DNA of 20,000 nucleotides from Folioceros fuciformis (lineage: Eukaryota). The first letter of the stretch is position 1. Each line of letters starts with the position of its first letter. The stretch covers positions 61,403-81,402 of the forward strand of contig JBNGIO010003970.1 of assembly GCA_049999805.1 (NCBI GenBank). The letters are read 5' to 3'. Of this stretch, positions 1,220 through 19,555 are shown piece after piece. A model generated the notes under the pieces. That model did no database searches and was not told the origin of the DNA. It was given only the letters and a program-made list of their open reading frames with translations. A program made the translations under genes and the position numbers.

Positions 1220-2408
1220 ATGGGGAAGCAAAATGGCGAGCTCCTGGTGGAATTATTCGGGAAGGCAAGCAGGGCCGCGGAGAAAGCTGCGGGAGAGGGA
1301 TCTGCAGCGAATTCGGAGGAAGAGCGCTGCGTGGATGCGTTGAAAGCTATGAAATCCGTGTCGGTGACCACTTCAGTTCTGGTTGACACGCAGGTATTGC
1401 GGGTGGCCATTTTTTTTCCTAGGCTGCTGCTTCTGTCCAGCTAAATTCTGTCCTCTGCTGCTCCTCCGTGTTGCAGCAATTGCGATGAGCGCATTGGTTT
1501 TCTTTGTTTTGTTTTGTTTTGTTTTTTTTCTCTTGCCAGGGCTCTGCGTTTCGTAGGGTTTCTGGTGTGATGGCGGGCGAGAGATTTTTGGATACCTGTT
1601 TGTGTGCTTTATGTGGTCGTGTTTGAGGTTGTTCATTTGTGCAGCTCGTGCATGGCAGGTTGGCAGGGAGCTGAAGAAACTGGCCAAGCACAAAAGGCCT
1701 AAAATCGCGGCAATGGCCCAGTCGGTGGTGAACGAGTGGAGGAGAATCATCGCCTCTGAAAAAACAGAGAAGAAGGGCTCTCCAGGCGTGCCCGGGACCA
1801 CCAACAACTCAAAATCTTCCATCTCTTTGTCCGATTCGAAGCCTACTGATACGCTTGCGGCCAAGGTGAAGCCCAAGATTGTGAAGACTGGCAGTGAGTC
1901 ACGGGACAAATTGCAGGAGCTGTTAATGGAGGCACTTCTGAAGGTGTCCGATGAGGTAGACCCGGAAGTCCGTGAGGTTGCAGAGAAAAGGGATGTGGCC
2001 AAGGTTGCTGGTGATGTCGAGAGGGCCATGTTTGGGAAGCTGGGGCTGTCTACAGGGGTGAACAAGGCTAAGATCCGCTCCATAATGTTCAACTTGAAGG
2101 ATCCCAAGAACCCGGATCTCAGAAGAAGGGTACTGTTAGGGGAAATCCAGGCCGAGCAGCTGGTGACCATGAGTGCGGAAGACATGGCAAGTGATCAGAG
2201 GAAGCTTGAAAACGGGAGAATAAAAGAGAAGGCATTGTTCGAGTGTGAACGGGGGCTGAAGCAGGCAGCCTCCACGGATCAATTCAAGTGTGGCAAGTGC
2301 GGACAGAGGAAAACCACATATTTCCAGATGCAGACCCGAAGTGCTGACGAGCCCATGACAACGTTCGTGACGTGTGTGAACTGCAACAACCATTGGAAGT
2401 TCTGCTGA
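1220..2408 (+). CDS. TFIIS: Transcription elongation factor S-II (TFIIS), 2 exons: 1220-1393, 1659-2408; 307 aa
   Basis: ATG at 1220 starts MGKQNGELLVELFGKASRAAE...CVDALKAMKSVSVTTSVLVDTQ. A GT..AG phase-0 intron (1394-1658) joins it to VGRELKKLAKH (plant TFIIS domain I). The central domain has RSIMFNLKDPKNPDLRRRVLLGEI. The C-terminal zinc ribbon is CGKC...QMQTRSADEPMTTFVTCVNC with the acidic DE hairpin intact. TGA ends at 2408. Confidence 0.97.
1502..1529. repeat. (TTTTG)n / poly-T microsatellite in the TFIIS intron
   Basis: ctttgttttgttttgttttgtttttttt read directly. Confidence 0.85.
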
Positions 2409-2843: not shown

Positions 2844-4687
2844 ATGGCGGCTCGTTGCCCGGCTTGGACAACCGCGGCCGTCATCTTGCGCCAAAGTAGC
2901 CACTGCCTTGCCACCACATCCCGGCCATCTCTCTCGCTGCCGGCCCGACGGGTTCGACTCCAGACCTTAAGGGCAAGGGTTAGTCGGAGCGGGAGGCGAA
3001 GCCGGAGTCTAGGCGACACTTATTTCCAAGAATACGAGGATGCCTTAGAGGGCATGGATCTGGCGAAAGCCCTTGAGCTGCTGGATGCCGCACGGCCCGA
3101 CGCGTCTGGGGCCCGGGCGCAGGAGGAGGGAGGTACTCTTGCAGTCTGGGGCTGTGCCGTCGCTGGAAACGACAGTGGTAGTAGAGTGGACTGACCCGGA
3201 AGCGGGGTGGTGTGATTGATCGTGTATTGTGTGTCCAGAAGTTGTGGTCATGGCATTGCCTAGCGGGACACCATCTGTATCGCCAGGCCAGCAGCAGTTT
3301 CTCAGACTTCTAAATACCTGTCTCAGCACTTCGGACCTCACGTTGGTAGCCAAAGCCTACAATTGGCTGAATGTGAGGGGATTACTTCCGAATTTTGGCC
3401 GGTACAAGGACCGGGGTGAGGGGCAGCTGAACCTGGATATAATCGTTGGTATAGATTTTGAGTTCTTTCCCCATTCTCACTTTGCTGTTGGTAATCGCAC
3501 AGCACAGCTTCAGAGGGTGAACGCGTGGTGACGCCTGCCGTGTTGATGGCCGCGACTGGGTTGGAAGGTGCCCTCCTCACTTTTTTCTTTCTACCTATGC
3601 GGTTGCGGATTCCGTTTTCCATTTTACTCATGCCAGGCTTTGGGCACTGCTGTTGAGTGGCAGCTTCTAAGCTCTCCCCCAAGAAGTGGGGCCTGTCAGG
3701 AGTCTCGGCCACCGTCTTATTTGCTTCGCTGGCCCTTTTCTCCTTCGCTGTGGACAATCACCTGGAAATTCGGCCCACCATTCTATTGTTGATGTCCCTG
3801 GGTTTGGCAGATGCGATTTACCTTGGGGGCACTGGCTACGGACAGGTTTTGAGTCTCTTTCCTGCTTATAGGGAAAGAATACTTGTTCATGAAGCAGGCC
3901 ATGTTCTTGCTGGTACGGCTATCTGCGACTATCTCCGTGTGATGCATCACCACAGTGGCATGTGCTCTTCTGGGTGAACATGTTCTGATTGGAGGAGGTT
4001 GGGTTACAGCGTACTTCCTTGGTTGTCCAGTTCGAGGAGTGATTCTGGATGCAATGCAGGCCCTGAAAATGGGCATTCAAGGTCAGGTATGGAACAGGGC
4101 ACTTCCTTGGGCGGTGCAGTGAGAATGGCAGGGAGACCCGGTCGACTGAGCTTGAACAGAATTGTGGTGCAGGCTGGGACGCAATTCTGGGATTCGTCAC
4201 TAGAAGAGGAGTTGAAACAGAACCGTATCACAAGTGCATCGTTGGATAGGTGAGACTGCCTTGCAGAATCTTCAAGCTTGGATGCAGCAACTCACTGCTT
4301 TGCCCGTACCTGTCTGTACCAGGTACTGTATTGTCATATTTGCTGGAATAGCTGCGGAAGCGATGGTGTATGGAGAGGCTGAAGGTGGCGAGAGTGACGA
4401 AAACATGTTCAAGGCCGTCGTTTCTCAACTGAAGCCCTCCTGGTCACCTGCACAGGTTTCCTACCCGTGAAGCGCGCTAAATTCAGCTCTCCCGCTAACA
4501 AGACTCACTTGTTCTTACTTTGCATGTCCGCATGATCCAGATGTCCAACCAAGCTCGATGGGCAGTCATACAAGCCTTGCGAATTTTGAAGGAACAGAGA
4601 GCGGCGCATGAGGCAGTTGTGGAAGCACTCAGGAGAAATTTGAGCCTCGCCTCCGTTATTCGGGCCCTCGAAGCAGCGGCTGTGTGA
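2844..4687 (+). CDS. VIR3: Chloroplast putative zinc metalloprotease (FtsH/M41-like protease region, no ATPase), VIRESCENT3-like; 8 exons: 2844-3132, 3239-3415, 3508-3567, 3664-3912, 4010-4086, 4173-4249, 4323-4455, 4541-4687
   Basis: The Arg/Ser-rich N-terminus resembles a transit peptide. The spliced product has EYEDAL..DLAKAL, RGLLPNFG, VTPAVL..ATGLE, KLSPKKWGLSG, RILVHEAGH (HExxH, 3888-3902), GCPVRGVILD, GIQGQAGTQFWD, FAGIAAEAMVYGEAEGGESDEN and MSNQARWAV. These match my recollection of Arabidopsis At1g56180/VIR3. All introns are GT-AG and frame-consistent; the exon 3 acceptor could alternatively be 3514. Confidence 0.9.
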
Positions 4688-4921: not shown

Positions 4922-7919
4922 TCAGAGTTGCAGGTTCACACTGAGCCTTGAAACCAAAACCAGCATCACCAGCAAATTCCTTGAGACAAGCAGTCTAAAT
5001 GATGCGAAGGGCACAAGACCAGCCATTACAGGAATGAAGAACACTAGGCTAAAGTGAAAAAGGAGGCGCCGAAGCCATAGAAATTGACACCTTCTCGGCA
5101 CTAACCCCTCGCGACGAGTACAACGTCCATTTAAACAACGATACAACAGCGGGGTATAGCAACTGGCAAACGCATGCAACAGACAAAGGCCTTCCCAGAG
5201 TAACAGCCAGTAGAGCCCACTCCCACCGAGGCTGTCCACAGATAACTTACCGGCGAAGCCACAGACCACCCCAAGAACTATCACAATGACTGACACAGGC
5301 ATGGCCACACTGGCACTAGTCACACTCCTTCGCAGAAGGAGGGAAGCCACCAAGGTAATGATCGCTGTTCCAGCAAGCATTCGCCCAGCAACTGTGATTT
5401 CACACATCAATGCCTGAGCATGTCCAGATAATGAATCCACTGCCGACTGATAAATACCAAAGCCCATCCACCCAGAACGACGTCGCACCTGCACACAGTT
5501 CCTGACAATACTAAGCAAACCCCAACTAGCAACGGCTCGCAGAGAAGGAGGGGGAGGAGGAGCATCTGGGGGAAGGGGAAGACACATTCTACGTACCTTA
5601 GCTGTTGGTTGACAGGACGACACCATGATAGAAAGTCTGTCATAGGAGTAATTCCAAGCACCATATGCTAATGCCAGCATCATTACACACAGCCCTGCTA
5701 CCAGCTCGTCTGCACAAGCCTTGCTCAATTCCATATACGCAATTCTCAACTTTCCGTCTTCTATCTCACTTTCCTTCAATAAAGTCCTTCCACGACTCAG
5801 TTCAAGACCTTGCTTCAAGATATCCTTTGTATCTTCACTCACATCTACGTTCCGCCGCATGATTTGATTAGACTCCCTGCTGAGACTCGCATTCCGCTTC
5901 ATGATCTGATTGGCCTCGAAGGACACTTCCAGCTGCTGCTCTTTCAGACTCAGCTGCTTCATCTTGTGCACGATTTCAAAATGCTTGTAATAATTGCGCT
6001 CCTCAAGGGCCTTGGTATTCCTTACAAGAACTTCCAGAATAGCTTCCTCAGTTGATAGTTGAGGAAGTTGAGGCGGGGGTGCCAACGTGAGAGCACCGTC
6101 TAATGTATGCAAACTGTAGGCTGCTCCTGCACTGCCATTTTCTTCCACGATTTCCTCCACGTCACTCATACAATTGGAAAAGCACAATTCCTCATTGTTT
6201 GAACAGCCGCGCTCAGTGTCAGAGACCTTGTCATTAACACCATAGTCGGTCACCGAGGAGGCATCCATGTCCACAGCTTCACCGCAAGCTTCGCGACCTG
6301 TGGTGCGACGTCCACCGGTGACCCATGCTTCTGCAACCTGCTCCTCCACTGGAACAAGAGTCGCCAATCCAGGTACCAGCTTCTGAGAGACACTTCCAAC
6401 CCTTGACATACCTGGCACCATATCTGATTGAAATCCCAGCCTCTCAGCACCATTCGGCTCCATGTCCGCAACTCGCGAAATTGCATGACGCACGCTCCAG
6501 AGTGTAGTAAACGTAGACTTGAAAGTCTGTTTAACATCCTTCACAAAGGGACTGCATGCTGTGCCCATCACCTGTGCATCACCAGCTAGCCCCCTCGCAT
6601 CAGGAGAACATAGGGGTTGTCGAAGAGAAAGGTACGAAGGGGCACGTGAAGAACAAGCTTACATACCGGCAACATCTGTGACTCCATAGCTACTTGCAAA
6701 ATCTGACAGAACGCACCCGAAGAAGGCATTAAGAACCTAAACATAAGTGAGACGGCCATGGCATCAAAGACCTTTGTAGCAGTGCTTGGCTGTACCCACC
6801 TTAGACAGCTGATCCGCAGAAAGTAAAGGGGAGCCGGAGCAGCTGACCTCCAGAATCTGCAGCCAGCGTCATCTTGTTAGCATCGTGGCGTGCTCCTAGC
6901 TATGAACAAGGTCAGGAAGGCCGGAAGAGTACCTCCGCAACAAGAGTCCCAATGGCCATGCCCAACGGAGCCGACAGTGCTCTTAGTGAGACGTTCCCAC
7001 CGACAGACAATGGCTCAGACTCCGGTACCGGCGTTGCTTCCCATGACTCAGAGGTACTCGTGGGCCTCTGCACCCGCTCCTCGTGAGCAGGCTTCGTGTC
7101 ACCATCTCCACCCGCTGTCAAGCTTGGCACGGAGCCCAACACACTCTGGTGGGCTGCTTCACATTCCTCCAACCTGCTCTCATCGGTGACGAGCACCCGA
7201 TCCCCCTTCCAAGCATTCATGAGCAACAGTCCGACAAAGCCGCAGAGCCCGTAAGCCAGAAGGTAAGAAATCCACTGAACTGCTACAGGGTCGTGTGGAG
7301 CATCACAGGTGTCATGCTGATTGCCCAGCGAAAACCCACGTTCATGCCGGCCCTCCACCGTCTGCAGAACACCCTCCACGCCCGACTCCCAGCCGTGTCC
7401 TCCATCACCACGATCTGGCACCGGTACAGCATCAAGGACACAAGTGTCATCCTGAGCGGCCAGCGACAACCCACATTCATGCCCGCTCCCTGCAACTTGC
7501 ACAAGCACCTCTGGCCCCGCCTGACACTCGCTGTCTACTGGGTCCAGTGCAGCATCCTGGGCAGAGGTGTCATCCTGGCCATCCACCTCCGGGCCAAATT
7601 CGAACGCGTCACGTGCCGCAACGAGACCCAGCTGCCCCTCCCACTTGGTTCCTGCGCTGCAGTCCACTACTGGGGCTCCCCCGCTCCGGCCTGGCAGCTC
7701 CTGTTCCTCCGCCGGGTTCAATTCCTGCTCGACACAAGCAAGCCATCGATCCAACGTGGTGCCATCCTGGCTGCTGTCCAGACAGGGAGAGATTTTGCGG
7801 AAATCCAACTGCAGCTCAAGCGAAGCACAAGACGGGGCTGGACAGGGCAGAAACAGACACAACAGCAGCAGAAGCAACGGCGGCGGGGATGGCTGCCGCA
7901 TTGCTGCTGCGGGAGCCAC
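4922..7919 (-). CDS. CPR5: CPR5-like nuclear-envelope membrane protein with an extended N-terminus; 5 exons: 7919-6933, 6856-6800, 6702-6667, 6571-5597, 5488-4922; about 873 aa
   Basis: CPR5 hallmarks are present: ALSAPLGMAIGTLVAE|ILEVSCSGSPLLSADQLSK|ILQVAMESQMLP|VMG..FVKDVKQTFKSTFTTL (LPLGM block plus two micro-exons), the coiled coil KMKQLSLKEQQL, and the C-terminal TM region ELSKACADELVAGL, LLLRRSVTSASVAMPVSVIVIVLGVVCGFAGKLSVDSLGGSG..WLLLWEGLCLLH, AGLVPFAS. All introns are GT-AG in phase 0. The start at 7919 is less certain than the rest of the model. Confidence 0.9.
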
Positions 7920-8416
7920 TTACCCGTGCATTCGAACTCTACGTACATGTATGTATCCGGACACCTGCACTTTGGTTAACCTACGCAGCGAACATACGGG
8001 CGCCCATGTACCACAGGCCCACCTGGTAGACGCCACGCAGTATGTATACCTATACATTTTGCTGGCATTGAAAGCAGACGTGGAAATACCGCCTACATAC
8101 ATACGACGCATATACGTAATTGTAATAATAATATGCCGTTATTGTATACGGTGCCACATAAATAAGCGCAACGGAAGAAACATGGTCGCAAGTGCAGAGT
8201 CGACTTGCCACGATCTGGGACCGCCTGCTTGATGCTTCTGCCCCTGCAATTCTCGTTTGTGGGAGGACCAAAGAGCTCAGGCAGGATTGGGGCGACGGAA
8301 AGCGGGAGAACAGGGGGTTTGGGATGCGAGAGCCCGTTCGTTGGGTGTCAGCTGGGAGGGATATGGGCAGCCGGGGTGTCAATCAGGCCGGCTCTTGAAC
8401 ACGCTTGGGGGGCATC

Positions 8417-8921
8417 ATGGCTGCTCTGCTCAAGAAATTCTTTGCTCACTTCGGCTCCAAGAAGTCAGGGAGTGATTCCAAGGAGACAGGGAAAGCAGGT
8501 GTCTCTTCCGGTGTTGGAGGCTCCGCCAAGGTAGCAGCTGCAGGGCAAGCTCACGGGCCGGTGGTGCGTCAATGCCAGGCTGGGAGCGGTGGTGTTCAGG
8601 TCGGCCTTTTGCAAACTTGTGCAAACCTTTATCTCACGCCCCGTCTGCTTTTACCTCTCCTCACATGTCGAGTCGTTTCTGGACTGGAGCGTGCAGGGTT
8701 TCACGTGGTACGTGGAGAGACTTTGTGCGGACGACGATGGGGATGTTGCTCAAGAGTTTTGGAAGGAGGTGGCTGTTGCTCGCAACCTTGCCCCCTCCCA
8801 ACCTACATTAGAGACTGTTTTGAGAACGAAGCCTGTTAAGTTGCGAGGGCCAGTGCTCATACACGGGGGTAATGTTCACCAATGCGTGGAGATTGCGAAG
8901 GGGGTTGTCATGTGGGCATGA
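8417..8921 (+). CDS. Small conserved plant protein of unknown function, 2 exons: 8417-8599, 8697-8921; 135 aa
   Basis: MAALLKKFFAHFG...GPVVRQCQAGSGGVQ is joined by a GT-AG intron (8600-8696) to GFTWYVERLCADDDGDVAQEFWKEV...TKPVKLRGPVLIHGGNVHQCVEIAKGVVMWA*. The GGVQGxxWY..L..D.DGDVA.EF..EV and QCVE motifs match a land-plant hypothetical-protein family as I recall it. Confidence 0.82.
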
Positions 8922-17439: not shown

Positions 17440-19555
17440 CTAGCCTTGCCGCTGCTGGTAAGGGAAGCCAGACGCGAGCCGGGACAACGTGAGCGACGCG
17501 ACCACAGCCAGGCCGGCGAACACGAAAAACTCGTTTGCCATGGACAGCCTTTCCCCGATTATGGCCACCATGATAATGGTCACCAGGTTGCCTGCGCAAA
17601 CTCAGTGTCACAAGCAAGGGGTCTGGTGAAAGCCTCCAACAAAGGTACCAAGATAGCTATTGAGTGGCAGTTAGACAGTGACACTTGGGGCAGAAAGGGC
17701 AGAGCAGGGGGTTTGCTGAAATGCACGGGAAACAAGGTAAAGCAAGGAGAAGGAGAAGCAAACCCACCAGCTGCCACGGTGAGCATCCACGCCGACTGCG
17801 CCGCTGCTTTCATGGTGGACGGTGCCTCGCTGTAGGCGAAGGCGGATCCTGTTGCCAAGCCACGTGTTCCAATCATGACACGCACATAGGGCAGTAAGTC
17901 AGGACCAGGAGGTGGAAGGAATGCAGCATCTCACACGTACCAGTGACGCTGAAGAGAACCTCTCCGGCCGTGATGAGCACGTACTGCGGCAGTTGCCAGA
18001 GGATGCAAAGCTGCTGCTCTCCGTGAGTCTCGATTGCCAGCTGAAGCAGCCCGGCTACCACGAAGGCTAGCGCAGCCAGCACAATGCCAACCACCATTCT
18101 TGCCAGAGGCGAGAAACGCACTCCTAAATCCCGTAGGCCGGGATATATCAGCTGGTCTGCTACTGGGATCATGAGCAGCACCAGCGTCGGGTTCAAGGCC
18201 TGAGGTAGCAGGCACCCCACACAAGCATTAGTTTACAAGGTTAGTCTCAGCTTTGGCTCTCTCTCTTGCACGTTTTGTTGGTCCAGGAGCATCAATCCAA
18301 CACCCGCACATATGGATGCTACAATGCACGCATGGATGGCTTGGCCCTGGGCCCTCGGCTTGGCTTACCACCATCTGATCTGGTTGGATGACCAATCCCC
18401 CCAGCCAGGAAATGCGCCCATTCAACTTGCTGCCCTGGAACACCCACTTGGAGGACTGCTGGTCGCCAAGAGCCCAATACACAGGAGTGGGCAGCAGCAC
18501 CAAGATCACCCGCAACAGCCTCTTGAGATCCTCCACCTCACTTTCATCGTGCTTCACCTTGGCACCATCCAACCAGTGTCCCCCTGTATTGCTACTGCTG
18601 CTGCTTCCCTCGCTACTCTGCTCCAAAAGGAGGGGAGCTTTTTCCTCCTTCTTGCCTCTAACCTTCCAGGCATCCCTAGCTATTCTCATGACCGACCCAT
18701 AAACATTCGCGTCCGGTGACCTCACCACATACGACCTCCTGCCTCCCCAAAATGCGGACAGAGCCAGCAGGGCCATCACACCCAGCACCGTGAAGGCCAC
18801 AGCGTAGGATGTCCTGGCTCTAAGGAAAGGAGTCAGCAGCTTGGTCAACACGGAGGCCGAGTTGGCCACGAAGTAGAATAGCGAGAAAAACCTGCGCTGC
18901 ACGAGCTCGCGGGTGCCCAAGTTCCAAACAGAGTACTCCACCTGGTCCGCCCCGAATGCACAGATGCAGGGCCTCATCCCCCCGGCACTGAGACCAACTA
19001 GAAAGATTCCCAAAGACGAGGCGCACACCAGTGCCGCCCGGGGCGACCAAGTGACTGCATCTCGTAGAGACGACAGCAGCAGTATCCAGATGCCCGCAAC
19101 GTCGAAGACTTCCAGCCAGAAGATAGTGCGATAGCTGCCCTGCCACCACATTCATTCAGCACCCAACTGTGAGTCCCACAGCCAGCAGTGCAACTCTCAT
19201 CAAGCTCAACTTCTTCGGTCAATAAGAGTTGAACAGCATCGTGACCTACCCACACACCGTCGCTCACGAAGCCGCTCAGCAGGGGCGCGGTGTATGTCAC
19301 CACCACAAACAGATGAACAAGCTCGGTGGCTGTGTTCTCGCTTAAACCCAGATGCTGATACAGGTACAACGCTAGCACAGCCTTCAGACCATAGAACACA
19401 AATCTTTCCGGGAACTCTGAGGCCACCAGGAACTTGATGCTGGACGGGAAGGAGCTGAAGTAGCCAGCACTAGCCACGCTATATCCGCTGGCCACTTCTG
19501 GGAGAGGCAGCGCTTCTGCGTCGTCGGCGGGCACGGGAGTCGTCGTTGCTGCCAT
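17440..19555 (-). CDS. Proton-dependent oligopeptide transporter (POT/PTR, SLC15/PEPT1-like); 5 exons: 19555-19250, 19139-18369, 18199-17941, 17848-17768, 17591-17440; 522 aa
   Basis: Motifs: EFPERFVFYG (ExxERF), PLLSGFVSD, GGMRPCICAFGADQ, RFFSLFYFVANS, HWLDGAK, PVYWALGDQQSSKWVFQ, IQPDQMVALNP, WQLPQYVLITAGEVLFSVTG, YSEAPSTMK, WMLTVAAGN. Introns are GT-AG and frame-consistent; TAG is at 17440-17442. Confidence 0.95.

What the first reader, a model, noticed from the sequence alone, without database searches (positions are those of the whole stretch)
6933..7919. CPR5 carrying a signal peptide, a luminal domain and an extra TM helix in front of the conserved CPR5 body
Seen: a 329-codon stop-free exon runs in frame into the conserved CPR5 LPLGM-type block and a clean GT donor at 6932. 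It starts with a classic signal peptide (MAPAAAMRQPSPPPLLLLLLCLFLPCPAPSCA, about 7919-7824). About 180 aa of acidic, Cys-containing sequence follow, then a TM-like segment WISYLLAYGLCGFVGLLLMNAW (about 7274-7209). Known: Arabidopsis CPR5 (about 564 aa) is a nuclear-pore membrane protein with a soluble, basic/Ser-Arg-rich N-terminus and no signal peptide. Here that basic region is absent and the linker is acidic. Inference: the topology is self-consistent (lumen, TM, nucleo/cytoplasmic CPR5 domain, C-terminal TMs). It suggests a receptor-like CPR5 with a perinuclear-space/ER-lumen ectodomain, either a lineage-specific fusion or an architecture lost in angiosperms.
Basis: partly seen in the sequence, partly recalled or inferred. 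Interest (0 to 1): 0.8.

Follow-up and report, generated by a model that had tools for sequence, protein, structure and literature searches.

The report
CPR5 gene with signal peptide and extra helix
This land-plant gene encodes the counterpart of the nuclear-pore immune regulator CPR5, but with a secretion signal, a short acidic segment and an extra membrane helix in front; mosses, liverworts, a clubmoss and ferns share this build and flowering plants lack it.

Summary
Codon 7919 is GTG behind an in-frame TAA, so the first ATG is 7901 and the protein has 867 aa, not 873.

A spliced RNA-type contig runs unbroken from 7934 through the signal-peptide, TM and CPR5 parts. It removes four GT..AG introns exactly where homology predicts them.

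The gene is a true CPR5-family member. It has CPR5_C, the heptad-repeat domain and the conserved TM2 glycine.

The N-terminal module is not a lineage-specific fusion. A signal-peptide-like start and a hydrophobic helix before the "PLG" block occur in 11 of 11 full-length non-seed-plant forms scored; the C-x12-RW[LMI]-x-C hairpin occurs in 10 of 11 and a basic flank after the helix in 10 of 11. All are absent from 12 of 12 seed-plant forms scored. The gene tree follows the species tree. So this looks like the ancestral land-plant build of CPR5, lost in angiosperms.

"Receptor-like" is not supported. Outside the small Cys hairpin, the luminal part is acidic, poorly conserved and predicted disordered.

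The homologs are filed as "hypothetical". I found no paper describing this module. Topology is inferred, not shown.

The parts
7902..7934 (-). 5' leader covered by the spliced contig. It holds a 3-codon upstream ORF (ATG 7931 .. TAA 7922-7920) in frame with the main ORF.
6933..7901 (-). Exon 1 coding part, aa 1-323, from the first ATG at 7901 to the GT donor at 6932
7824..7901 (-). Signal-peptide-like start, aa 1-26. The n-region is MRQ (+1) and the h-core is 10 residues. It is followed by a proline-rich c-region with small residues at -3/-1 (S-C-A | S).
   Evidence: AF2 helix 8-17
7719..7805 (-). Conserved two-helix hairpin with Cys40 and Cys56 (C-x12-RWL-x-C), aa 33-61
   Evidence: tblastn; alignment; AF2 pLDDT 74-86
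7290..7718 (-). Acidic, poorly conserved segment predicted to be disordered, aa 62-204. It contains a direct repeat of 135-nt period (7304-7387 and 7439-7522, 70% identical).
7209..7274 (-). Extra hydrophobic helix TM0, aa 210-231
   Evidence: KD 1.84; AF2 helix 205-234 with pLDDT 70-83; positional counterparts in 10 homologs
6987..7208 (-). Acidic linker, aa 232-305, poorly conserved
6933..6986 (-). Conserved 'PLG' helix, aa 306-323, where the shared CPR5 body begins
6857..6932 (-). Intron 1 (GT..AG)
6800..6856 (-). Exon 2, aa 324-342
6703..6799 (-). Intron 2 (GT..AG)
6667..6702 (-). Exon 3, aa 343-354
6572..6666 (-). Intron 3 (GT..AG)
5597..6571 (-). Exon 4, aa 355-679. It holds the conserved F..SF.ST block, a variable acidic part, the heptad-repeat domain and the first C-terminal TM helix.
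5777..5947 (-). Heptad-repeat domain: 9 consecutive heptad-spaced apolar residues, aa 563-619
   Evidence: the domain as defined in PMC11798864 (passages)
5489..5596 (-). Intron 4 (GT..AG); it reads through in frame in the genomic ORF
4922..5488 (-). Exon 5 coding part, aa 680-867 plus the stop. It holds the remaining TM helices of CPR5_C, including the conserved TM2 glycine.

Best explanation
The minus-strand five-exon gene (ATG 7901 to stop 4922) encodes the single-copy-type orthologue of the plant membrane nucleoporin CPR5 in a non-seed land plant. It keeps what appears to be the ancestral land-plant architecture.

Shown here:
- One assembled spliced transcript contig carries all parts.
- The C-terminal two thirds are a bona fide CPR5 body: PLG helix, heptad-repeat dimerisation domain and the CPR5_C transmembrane bundle.
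- The N-terminal module (signal-peptide-like start, Cys hairpin, acidic segment, hydrophobic helix TM0) is shared with moss, liverwort, lycophyte and fern orthologues. It is missing from angiosperm CPR-5.

Inferred mechanism:
- The N-terminal signal is read by the ER translocon and probably cleaved after about aa 26.
- About 180 aa then sit in the ER lumen or perinuclear space. These are a small, probably disulfide-stapled helical hairpin plus an acidic disordered tail.
- TM0 crosses the membrane with its C-terminal side in the cytoplasm or nucleoplasm.
- The roughly 410-aa middle region (PLG domain and heptad repeats) therefore faces the same side as in Arabidopsis CPR5. There it dimerises and binds partners, and the C-terminal helices anchor it again.
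- The body is thus a loop pinned at both ends, rather than a free N-terminal tail.
- In angiosperms the signal peptide and TM0 were lost together, as topology requires. A basic, NLS/SR-type soluble N-terminus took their place.
For: Gene model and RNA:
- Run X3 comes from another study than the DNA runs. Its 3306-nt contig has no differing letters.
- That contig covers 7934..6933 unbroken and joins 6933|6856, 6800|6702, 6667|6571 and 5597|5488, all GT..AG on the minus strand. The DNA run X1 is collinear.
- The joined exons give one 867-aa ORF.

Family membership:
- The C-terminal ORF hits four proteins carrying PF28583 at E 1e-51 to 1e-64. PF28583 is CPR5_C.
- There are 9 heptad-spaced apolar residues, and the glycine aligned with Brassicaceae CPR-5 G422 is present (G in 41 of 50 rows).

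Module conservation (27 rows scored):
- A strongly hydrophobic 10-aa core in the first 70 aa occurs in 11 of 11 non-seed forms (KD 1.98-3.84). The 12 seed-plant rows all score 1.38 or less.
- The Cys motif occurs in 10 of 11 non-seed forms, 0 of 12 seed-plant rows and 0 of 4 algal rows.
- A 17-aa hydrophobic segment before the PLG block has KD 1.52-2.6 in 11 of 11 non-seed forms. It is followed by net charge +2 to +7 in 10 of 11.
- The h-cores are 5-14 residues long in the 10 of 11 forms where the rule found one (none in Riccia), which is signal-peptide length.

Named sources: Physcomitrium, Riccia, Marchantia paleacea, Diphasiastrum and Pteridium.

Trees:
- In the trees of 36 and 92 rows the family follows plant phylogeny.
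- The angiosperm clade has support 100 and holds all full-length 530-630-aa forms.

AlphaFold2:
- On exon 1, helices are predicted at 8-17, 34-43, 49-61 (pLDDT 74-86), 205-234 (70-83) and 306-322. Residues 68-196 are below pLDDT 50.
- The full-length fern-clade P0002 shows the same order of elements.
Against: - No SignalP, DeepTMHMM or experiment was available. The signal peptide and TM0 rest on hydropathy, simple (-3,-1) rules and conservation.
- TM0 is only borderline in some orthologues. KD is 1.52-1.61 with internal Lys in Physcomitrium, Pteridium and P0004, and pLDDT is 48-64 in P0002.
- In the window itself, the 15 aa after TM0 have net charge -1, not a positive charge.
- X3 is only guessed to be RNA. 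Contigs cannot show a transcript start. The same contig also runs into the convergent neighbour gene (joint 4452|4538 with GT..AG on the + strand), so it is a merged assembly.
- Seed-plant loss is not clean. A partial Taxus model keeps three copies of the Cys motif and a TM-like stretch, while Cryptomeria and P0014 lack them.
- Algal forms are mixed. Only P0100 shows both a signal-like start and TM0. Chara starts directly with a hydrophobic stretch, Spirogloea has a TM-like stretch at 149, and Mesotaenium and Closterium show neither.
- N-termini of database gene models may be wrong.
- No genome is held, so a second, short CPR5 gene in this organism cannot be excluded.
Confidence: 0.78

Rival explanations
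1. The first hydrophobic segment is not cleaved. It stays as a signal anchor, so it and TM0 form a membrane hairpin with the acidic segment as a luminal loop and a very short cytosolic N-terminus. The CPR5 body faces the same side as in the main reading.
For: No cleavage predictor could be run. The moss and Marchantia forms have long charged n-regions of 26-41 aa, which is less typical of cleaved signals.
Against: The h-cores are only 5-14 residues, and most are followed by small residues at -3/-1. The window's core is 10 residues and is followed by three prolines. That length is typical of a signal peptide, not of a membrane span.
Confidence: 0.1
2. The long form is a paralogue or a lineage-specific fusion, not the CPR5 orthologue. 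A normal short CPR5 exists elsewhere in this genome.
For: No whole genome is held for the window, so copy number is untested.
Against: The exhaustive profile search over 1.84 billion representatives found 192 family members. In the 92-row tree, every row under 600 aa inside the bryophyte, lycophyte and fern clades is a fragment. All full-length short forms sit in the angiosperm clade, and the tree follows the species tree. The module occurs in at least five named non-seed species.
Confidence: 0.05
3. The upstream part of exon 1 is transcribed but not translated. Translation starts at Met229 (MNAWK...) or later, giving a CPR5 without signal peptide or TM0.
For: A 3-codon upstream ORF lies in the leader. 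No ribosome-profiling or proteomic data were available.
Against: ATG 7901 is the first long-ORF start on the contig. The Cys hairpin encoded upstream of Met229 is conserved in 10 of 11 long forms across bryophytes, a lycophyte and ferns. Such conservation is not expected of an untranslated leader.
Confidence: 0.03
4. The module sends the protein along the secretory pathway to another membrane, such as the plasma membrane or tonoplast. The non-seed-plant protein would then not be a nuclear-pore protein at all.
For: A cleaved signal plus a type-I helix is the usual build of secretory-pathway membrane proteins. Nothing here tests localisation.
Against: The whole CPR5 body, including the dimerisation repeats and the TM bundle, is conserved with the angiosperm nucleoporin. 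ER insertion is also the normal route to the nuclear envelope (established cell biology, recalled).
Confidence: 0.04

Closest known systems
Angiosperm CPR5 / 'Protein CPR-5' (Arabidopsis CPR5; here represented by Hirschfeldia P0037 at 563 aa, Amborella P0018 at 628 aa and Nymphaea P0026 at 630 aa)
   Same: Shares the CPR5_C transmembrane domain, the heptad-repeat domain, the PLG helix with the following F..SF.ST block, and the conserved TM2 glycine (mutated in cpr5-1 G420D according to PMC11798864, passages). The window model is 27-35% identical to these forms over the shared body.
   Different: The angiosperm forms have no signal-peptide-like start, no Cys hairpin and no TM0 (0 of 12 seed-plant rows). 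Instead they have a soluble basic N-terminus, described as an SR domain and RRM in PMC11798864 (passages). The window protein is about 300 aa longer.
Unannotated long CPR5 homologues of non-seed plants: Physcomitrium patens XP_024359069.1, Riccia fluitans KAL2653238.1, Marchantia paleacea KAG6553832.1, Diphasiastrum complanatum KAJ7530367.1 and a Pteridium aquilinum EukProt transcript
   Same: Same order of parts: signal-like start, C-x12-RW[LMI]-x-C hairpin, acidic segment, TM0 with a basic flank, PLG helix, heptad repeats, CPR5_C.
   Different: Only 33-45% identity to the window model, and only in the body. The acidic segment differs in length (about 70 to 300 aa) and in sequence. The window has its own 45-aa repeat and lacks the basic flank after TM0. 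All are filed as 'hypothetical' or 'uncharacterized' protein.
Membrane nucleoporins with luminal domains (gp210/Pom152 type); recalled, not tested here
   Same: A pore-membrane protein with a part in the perinuclear space. This is an analogy only.
   Different: No sequence or fold relation was found. Foldseek against the PDB gave no match with E <= 0.001. Those luminal domains are large and folded, whereas this one is short, acidic and mostly disordered.

Membership tests
CPR5 (Pfam PF28583 CPR5_C) | C-terminal multi-helix CPR5_C domain | tested here: met
   The window ORF 4925-6658 hits 4 of 4 returned proteins that carry precomputed PF28583, at E 1.9e-51 to 1.4e-64. PF28583 is named CPR5_C in the Atlas clusters 'Protein CPR-5'. 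Identity reaches 46-47% over about 300 columns to Ginkgo. Hydropathy peaks lie at aa 639, 712, 740 and 821. The local Pfam copy lacks this model, so the direct scan found nothing.
CPR5 | Heptad-repeat domain (L-x6-L...) just before the TM helices, the dimer interface in Arabidopsis (PMC11798864, passages) | tested here: met
   There are 9 consecutive heptad-spaced L/I/V residues at aa 563-619. The homologous region of P0002 is one long helix with pLDDT 92-96.
CPR5 | Conserved glycine in TM2 (site of cpr5-1 G420D; PMC11798864, passages) | tested here: met
   The column of Hirschfeldia CPR-5 G422 holds G in 41 of 50 rows, including the window exon 5. The equivalence of G422 with Arabidopsis G420 is assumed from context, not aligned to Arabidopsis itself.
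CPR5 | Orthology (position in the family tree follows the species tree, one gene per lineage) | tested here: met
   Trees of 36 and 92 rows place the window inside land plants, outside the seed-plant clade. Copy number in its own genome is untested.
CPR5 as described in Arabidopsis | Soluble basic N-terminus (NLS / SR-rich region) with no signal peptide | tested here: not met
   The window starts with a signal-peptide-like segment. Aa 27-208 have 36 D+E against 9 K+R. This is the point of difference, and it is shared with 10 other non-seed forms.
CPR5 as described in Arabidopsis | Location in the membrane ring of the nuclear pore; binding of CKIs | not testable with these tools
   Known for Arabidopsis from the review PMC8685260 (passages). 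No data exist for this organism.
Type-I (signal peptide + single span) N-terminal module | Cleavable signal peptide and a membrane-spanning helix with a cytoplasmic positive flank | tested here: inconclusive
   Hydropathy, h-core length and (-3,-1) residues fit. The positive flank is present in 10 of 11 forms but not in the window (-1). No dedicated predictor or experiment was available.

The most novel reading that the evidence does not exclude
Ancestral CPR5 was a pore- or ER-membrane protein that reached into the perinuclear space or ER lumen. It did so with a disulfide-stapled helical hairpin and an acidic, possibly cation-binding tail. This luminal part carried information (redox state, Ca2+ or a luminal partner) to the cytoplasmic dimerisation domain. 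CPR5 would then have begun as a lumen-to-nucleus signalling device, and angiosperms replaced the luminal input with a nucleoplasmic NLS/SR-type N-terminus.
Probability: 0.15. Interest if true: 0.75.

Novelty: new variant of a known kind. Interest (0 to 1): 0.5.

Why it matters
CPR5 is studied almost only in Arabidopsis. There, its soluble N-terminus is treated as part of the protein's identity, and papers state that CPR5 is highly conserved across plants (PMC11798864, passages).

The data here suggest that the angiosperm N-terminus is derived. From bryophytes to ferns, the protein starts in the ER lumen or perinuclear space and is pinned to the membrane at both ends of its functional middle region.

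That changes three things:
- how the protein could reach the pore membrane in these plants;
- which parts are ancient (Cys hairpin, PLG domain, heptad repeats, TM bundle);
- what should be tested in Marchantia, Physcomitrium or hornworts.

It also gives a clean example of a signal peptide and a membrane span lost together, which keeps the topology of the rest of the protein. If topology tests fail, this remains an ordinary orthologue with an oddly hydrophobic N-terminus.

Tried and rejected
- Local Pfam scan of exon 1 and of the C-terminal ORF: only chance-level rows (E 0.04-0.27). The local copy lacks PF28583.
- Whole genome of the window: not held. Copy number and organism could not be checked.
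- Tandem Repeats Finder on 6900-8000: 0 rows. The 135-nt repeat appeared only with the repeat finder.
- Sequencing-run search: no RNA holder was listed on record; X3 is only guessed to be RNA.
- Runs X5 and X6 (other organisms of the X3 study): nothing laid at 90% likeness.
- ESM Atlas with exon 1: no usable hit.
- Foldseek of the full-length P0002 model against the PDB: no match with E <= 0.001; the top rows are long-helix proteins with TM-scores of 0.1 or less on the query.
- The exon-1 model was not fold-searched, because its mean pLDDT is 53.
- Literature search CPR5 + signal peptide/transmembrane/bryophyte: the one 'signal peptide' mention in a CPR5 paper refers to an ER marker construct (PMC12034427).
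- Literature search CPR5 + perinuclear space/ectodomain/luminal domain/N-terminal extension/type I membrane: none of the 15 listed papers holds CPR5.
- Literature search CPR5 + Anthoceros/Selaginella/Ceratopteris/Klebsormidium: only PMC11798864 among the 15 listed combines CPR5 with non-seed-plant names. It has 0 occurrences of 'signal peptide' in its main text. Its supplementary figures (PDF alignments) could not be read and may show N-termini.
- My first exon coordinates from reading by eye were off by 2 bases at three junctions and gave a broken frame. They were corrected from the contig joints.
Full report
**What is in the sequence**

On the minus strand, a frame is open from 7919 to 6912.

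Codon 7919 is GTG and follows an in-frame TAA at 7922-7920. The first ATG is 7901, so the protein begins MRQPSPPPLLLLLLCLFLPCPAPSCA.

The remaining details hold:
- The segment between the two hydrophobic stretches (aa 27-208) has 36 acidic residues, 9 basic residues and 7 Cys.
- The second hydrophobic stretch sits at 7274..7209, with a 19-aa Kyte-Doolittle peak of 1.84.
- The following linker is mildly acidic.

The open frame by itself proves little. In this 60% G+C stretch, the opposite strand also has open frames of 310, 268 and 235 codons.

**Gene model and transcript evidence**

A search with the downstream 578-codon ORF found four proteins of 805-975 aa. Mapped back on the window by tblastn, they hit the C-terminal ORF. 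They also hit two short blocks inside exon 1, at 7796-7728 and 6995-6927.

Alignment with them suggested three small introns between exon 1 and the large ORF, plus one in-frame intron inside that ORF.

One run of the same organism label but another study (X3, guessed to be RNA) holds 60% of the sampled words. Its 3306-nt contig has no differing letters. It covers 7934..6933 without a break and joins 6933|6856, 6800|6702, 6667|6571 and 5597|5488. The skipped parts all read GT..AG on the minus strand. The DNA run X1 is collinear.

With these junctions the five exons give one ORF of 867 aa. My first hand-read coordinates were off and gave a broken frame.

Caveats on the RNA evidence:
- Contigs cannot show a transcript start.
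- The RNA nature of X3 is inferred from the removed introns.
- The same contig continues into the convergent + strand neighbour (joint 4452|4538, GT..AG on +), so it merges two overlapping 3' ends.

Upstream, no contig covers 7935-8197, and another contig starts at 8198. The leader holds a 3-codon upstream ORF at 7931-7920.

**Is it CPR5?**

The local Pfam copy finds nothing. The four homologues carry precomputed PF28583. The ESM Atlas lists PF28583 as CPR5_C in clusters named 'Protein CPR-5'.

A profile of the four proteins plus the window's C-terminal ORF was run by HMMER over 1.84 billion representatives. It found 192 proteins at E <= 0.001 and 67 at E <= 1e-30.

I looked up source names for 30 of these:
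- The short forms of 563-630 aa are named 'Protein CPR-5' or come from named angiosperms: Hirschfeldia, Amborella, Nymphaea, Macleaya and Rubroshorea.
- The long forms are 'hypothetical' or 'uncharacterized' proteins of Physcomitrium patens, Riccia fluitans, Marchantia paleacea, Diphasiastrum complanatum, Pteridium aquilinum, Cryptomeria japonica, Taxus chinensis (partial), Spirogloea, Chara and Closterium, plus a JGI 'Mesen1' entry that I read as Mesotaenium.

The window protein has the heptad-repeat domain that a 2025 paper defines as the CPR5 dimer interface, with nine heptad-spaced apolar residues at aa 563-619. It also has the glycine aligned with Brassicaceae G422, which is G in 41 of 50 rows (PMC11798864, passages).

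No database protein is close to it. The best identities are 33-45% over the body.

**Is the N-terminal module real and shared?**

An alignment of exon 1 with eleven long forms lines up four elements:
- a hydrophobic start;
- a motif C-x12-RW[LMI]-x-C;
- a hydrophobic helix followed by basic residues;
- the PLG helix.

I scored 27 full-length rows with simple rules:
- All 11 non-seed forms (the window, moss, two liverworts, lycophyte, fern, four unnamed rows of the fern clade, and unnamed P0100) have a 10-aa core of KD 1.98-3.84 within the first 70 aa. The 12 seed-plant rows reach at most 1.38.
- The Cys motif is in 10 of 11 non-seed rows (P0100 lacks it), in 0 of 12 seed-plant rows and in 0 of 4 algal rows.
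- A 17-aa hydrophobic segment before the PLG block scores 1.52-2.6 in 11 of 11 non-seed rows. It is followed by net charge +2 to +7 in 10 of 11. The window is the exception, at -1.
- In that table, the apparent hydrophobic segments of Nymphaea and Hirschfeldia are the PLG block itself, because my pattern missed it there. Cryptomeria has a weak amphipathic stretch (1.56).

The hydrophobic cores at the N-termini are 5-14 residues long in the 10 of 11 forms where my rule found one (it found none in Riccia), and most are followed by small residues at -3/-1. That is signal-peptide length rather than membrane-span length.

AlphaFold2 on exon 1 used a 12-row alignment and gave mean pLDDT 53:

| Residues | Prediction | pLDDT |
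|---|---|---|
| 8-17 | helix | 65-67 (10-residue blocks) |
| 34-43 and 49-61 | helices (the Cys40/Cys56 hairpin) | 74-86 |
| 68-196 (mostly) | no structure | below 50 |
| 205-234 | helix | 70-83 |
| 306-322 | helix | 72 |

A full-length model of the fern-clade P0002 used 50 rows and gave mean pLDDT 63. It shows the same order of elements:
- a confident three-helix PLG domain (pLDDT 76-96);
- a 120-residue helix through the heptad repeats into the first membrane helix (pLDDT 88-96, mostly above 90);
- the C-terminal helices;
- its TM0 is less confident, at pLDDT 48-64.

Segment identities across the long forms:

| Segment | Mean pairwise identity |
|---|---|
| Cys hairpin | 39% |
| PLG helix | 44% |
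| Acidic segment | 19% |
| Linker after TM0 | 16% |

The window's acidic segment also carries its own 135-nt direct repeat, 7304-7387 and 7439-7522, at 70% identity.

**Orthologue or paralogue?**

Trees were built from the last 350 aa. The first had 36 rows (IQ-TREE quick). The second had 92 rows (FastTree). For the second I dropped P0001 (same cluster as P0161), P0046 (transposon fusion), P0048, P0049 and P0062 (no C-terminal helices), and every row under 300 aa.

Both trees follow plant phylogeny:
- Unnamed marine-type and Pyramimonas rows lie outside.
- Next come Chara and the zygnematophyte rows.
- Then land plants, with liverworts plus mosses, ferns and the lycophyte.
- Then gymnosperms.
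- Finally an angiosperm clade with support 100.

All full-length 530-630-aa forms lie in the angiosperm clade. The rows under 600 aa inside the non-seed clades are fragments.

The window branches inside land plants but outside the sampled moss, liverwort, fern and seed-plant groups. It is sister to all other land plants (support 83). In one search it sits in a non-seed polytomy beside the 380-aa fragment P0056. This fits a lineage such as hornworts, but that is not shown.

I therefore read the long form as the CPR5 orthologue and its N-terminal module as ancestral for land plants.

The loss is not cleanly dated:
- The partial Taxus model keeps three copies of the Cys motif and a TM-like stretch before its PLG block.
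- Cryptomeria and the unnamed P0014 lack them.
- Among streptophyte algae, only P0100 shows both a signal-like start and TM0.

**How it most likely works**

Shown: the parts, their order, their conservation, and their presence on one spliced contig.

Inferred from established rules of membrane insertion:
- The signal peptide opens the translocon and is probably cleaved after about aa 26.
- Aa 27-204 stay in the ER lumen or perinuclear space.
- TM0 spans with its C-terminal side in the cytoplasm or nucleoplasm.

The PLG domain and heptad repeats then face the same side as the N-terminal half of Arabidopsis CPR5. That protein is described as a membrane-ring nucleoporin with five C-terminal helices that oligomerises and holds CKIs (PMC11798864 and PMC8685260, passages).

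The joint presence of signal and TM0 in non-seed plants, and their joint absence in angiosperms, is what topology demands. Losing only one of them would flip the body to the wrong side.

The luminal part does not look like a receptor domain. Only a roughly 30-aa hairpin with two conserved cysteines is kept. Their conservation fits an oxidising luminal location, but a disulfide is not shown. A role as spacer, cation-binding tail or luminal contact is speculation.

**Known or new?**

The sequences are public but unannotated.

In the held library I ran four searches and read passages of three papers. One paper aligns the heptad repeats and TM2 of moss, liverwort, fern, lycophyte, gymnosperm and algal CPR5 and calls the protein highly conserved across plants. 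Its main text does not contain 'signal peptide'. Its PDF supplements could not be read.

I found no description of the N-terminal signal, luminal segment and TM0 module. Subscription-journal papers, such as the original CPR5 cloning and nucleoporin papers, are outside the library.

**Verdict**

The finding is real. It is an ancestral, conserved but undescribed variant of a known protein's architecture. It is not a lineage-specific fusion, and the data do not show it to be a receptor. Topology, cleavage and localisation remain to be tested.

Noticed in passing
window 3200-4600 (+), joint 4452|4538: A convergent + strand gene has ORF pieces at 3657-3977 (containing an HEAGH-type motif) and 4216-4470. 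It has an 85-nt GT..AG intron at 4453-4537. The same X3 contig that carries the CPR5 transcript runs into it, so the 3' ends of the two genes overlap. Pfam found no family for the two pieces.
   Followed up: partly
window 7935-8197 and 8198-8600: A second X3 contig starts at 8198 and continues past 8600 with unmatched letters (an intron or further exon). This leaves about 264 uncovered bases between it and the CPR5 leader, which may be a short shared promoter region of two divergent genes.
   Followed up: no
window 7920-7931 (-): A three-codon upstream ORF (ATG CAC GGG TAA) lies in the leader, in frame with the main ORF and 18 bases before its ATG.
   Followed up: no
window 1557-2408 (+): This open frame matches the TFIIS central domain (E 1.6e-32), the TFIIS zinc ribbon (E 2.6e-20) and Med26/TFIIS N-terminal helices. 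It is a transcription elongation factor S-II gene.
   Followed up: no
window 18228-19151 (-): This open frame matches the PTR2/POT transporter family (E 7.4e-41) and is part of an NPF-type transporter gene.
   Followed up: no
P0048 (Taxus chinensis KAH9315746.1, partial), aa 190-620: The conserved Cys motif with its acidic surroundings occurs three times in tandem (at aa 200, 433 and 581) ahead of a TM-like stretch and the PLG block. This is either a real triplication or a gene-model artefact.
   Followed up: partly
P0116, P0118, P0128, P0130 (unnamed ENA proteins, outgroup of the tree): These distant CPR5_C proteins start with about 40-105 polar residues (a shared PRGF..AEA start). A very hydrophobic helix follows (KD 2.4-3.0), with no signal peptide. 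This is a different N-terminal arrangement whose topology would not match the land-plant one unless the helix acts as a reverse signal anchor.
   Followed up: no
P0045 (Chara braunii GBG69762.1), aa 1-20: The Chara homologue begins directly with a hydrophobic stretch followed by basic residues, about 80 aa before its PLG block. It looks as if only TM0, without an ectodomain, is present, or the gene model is cut.
   Followed up: no
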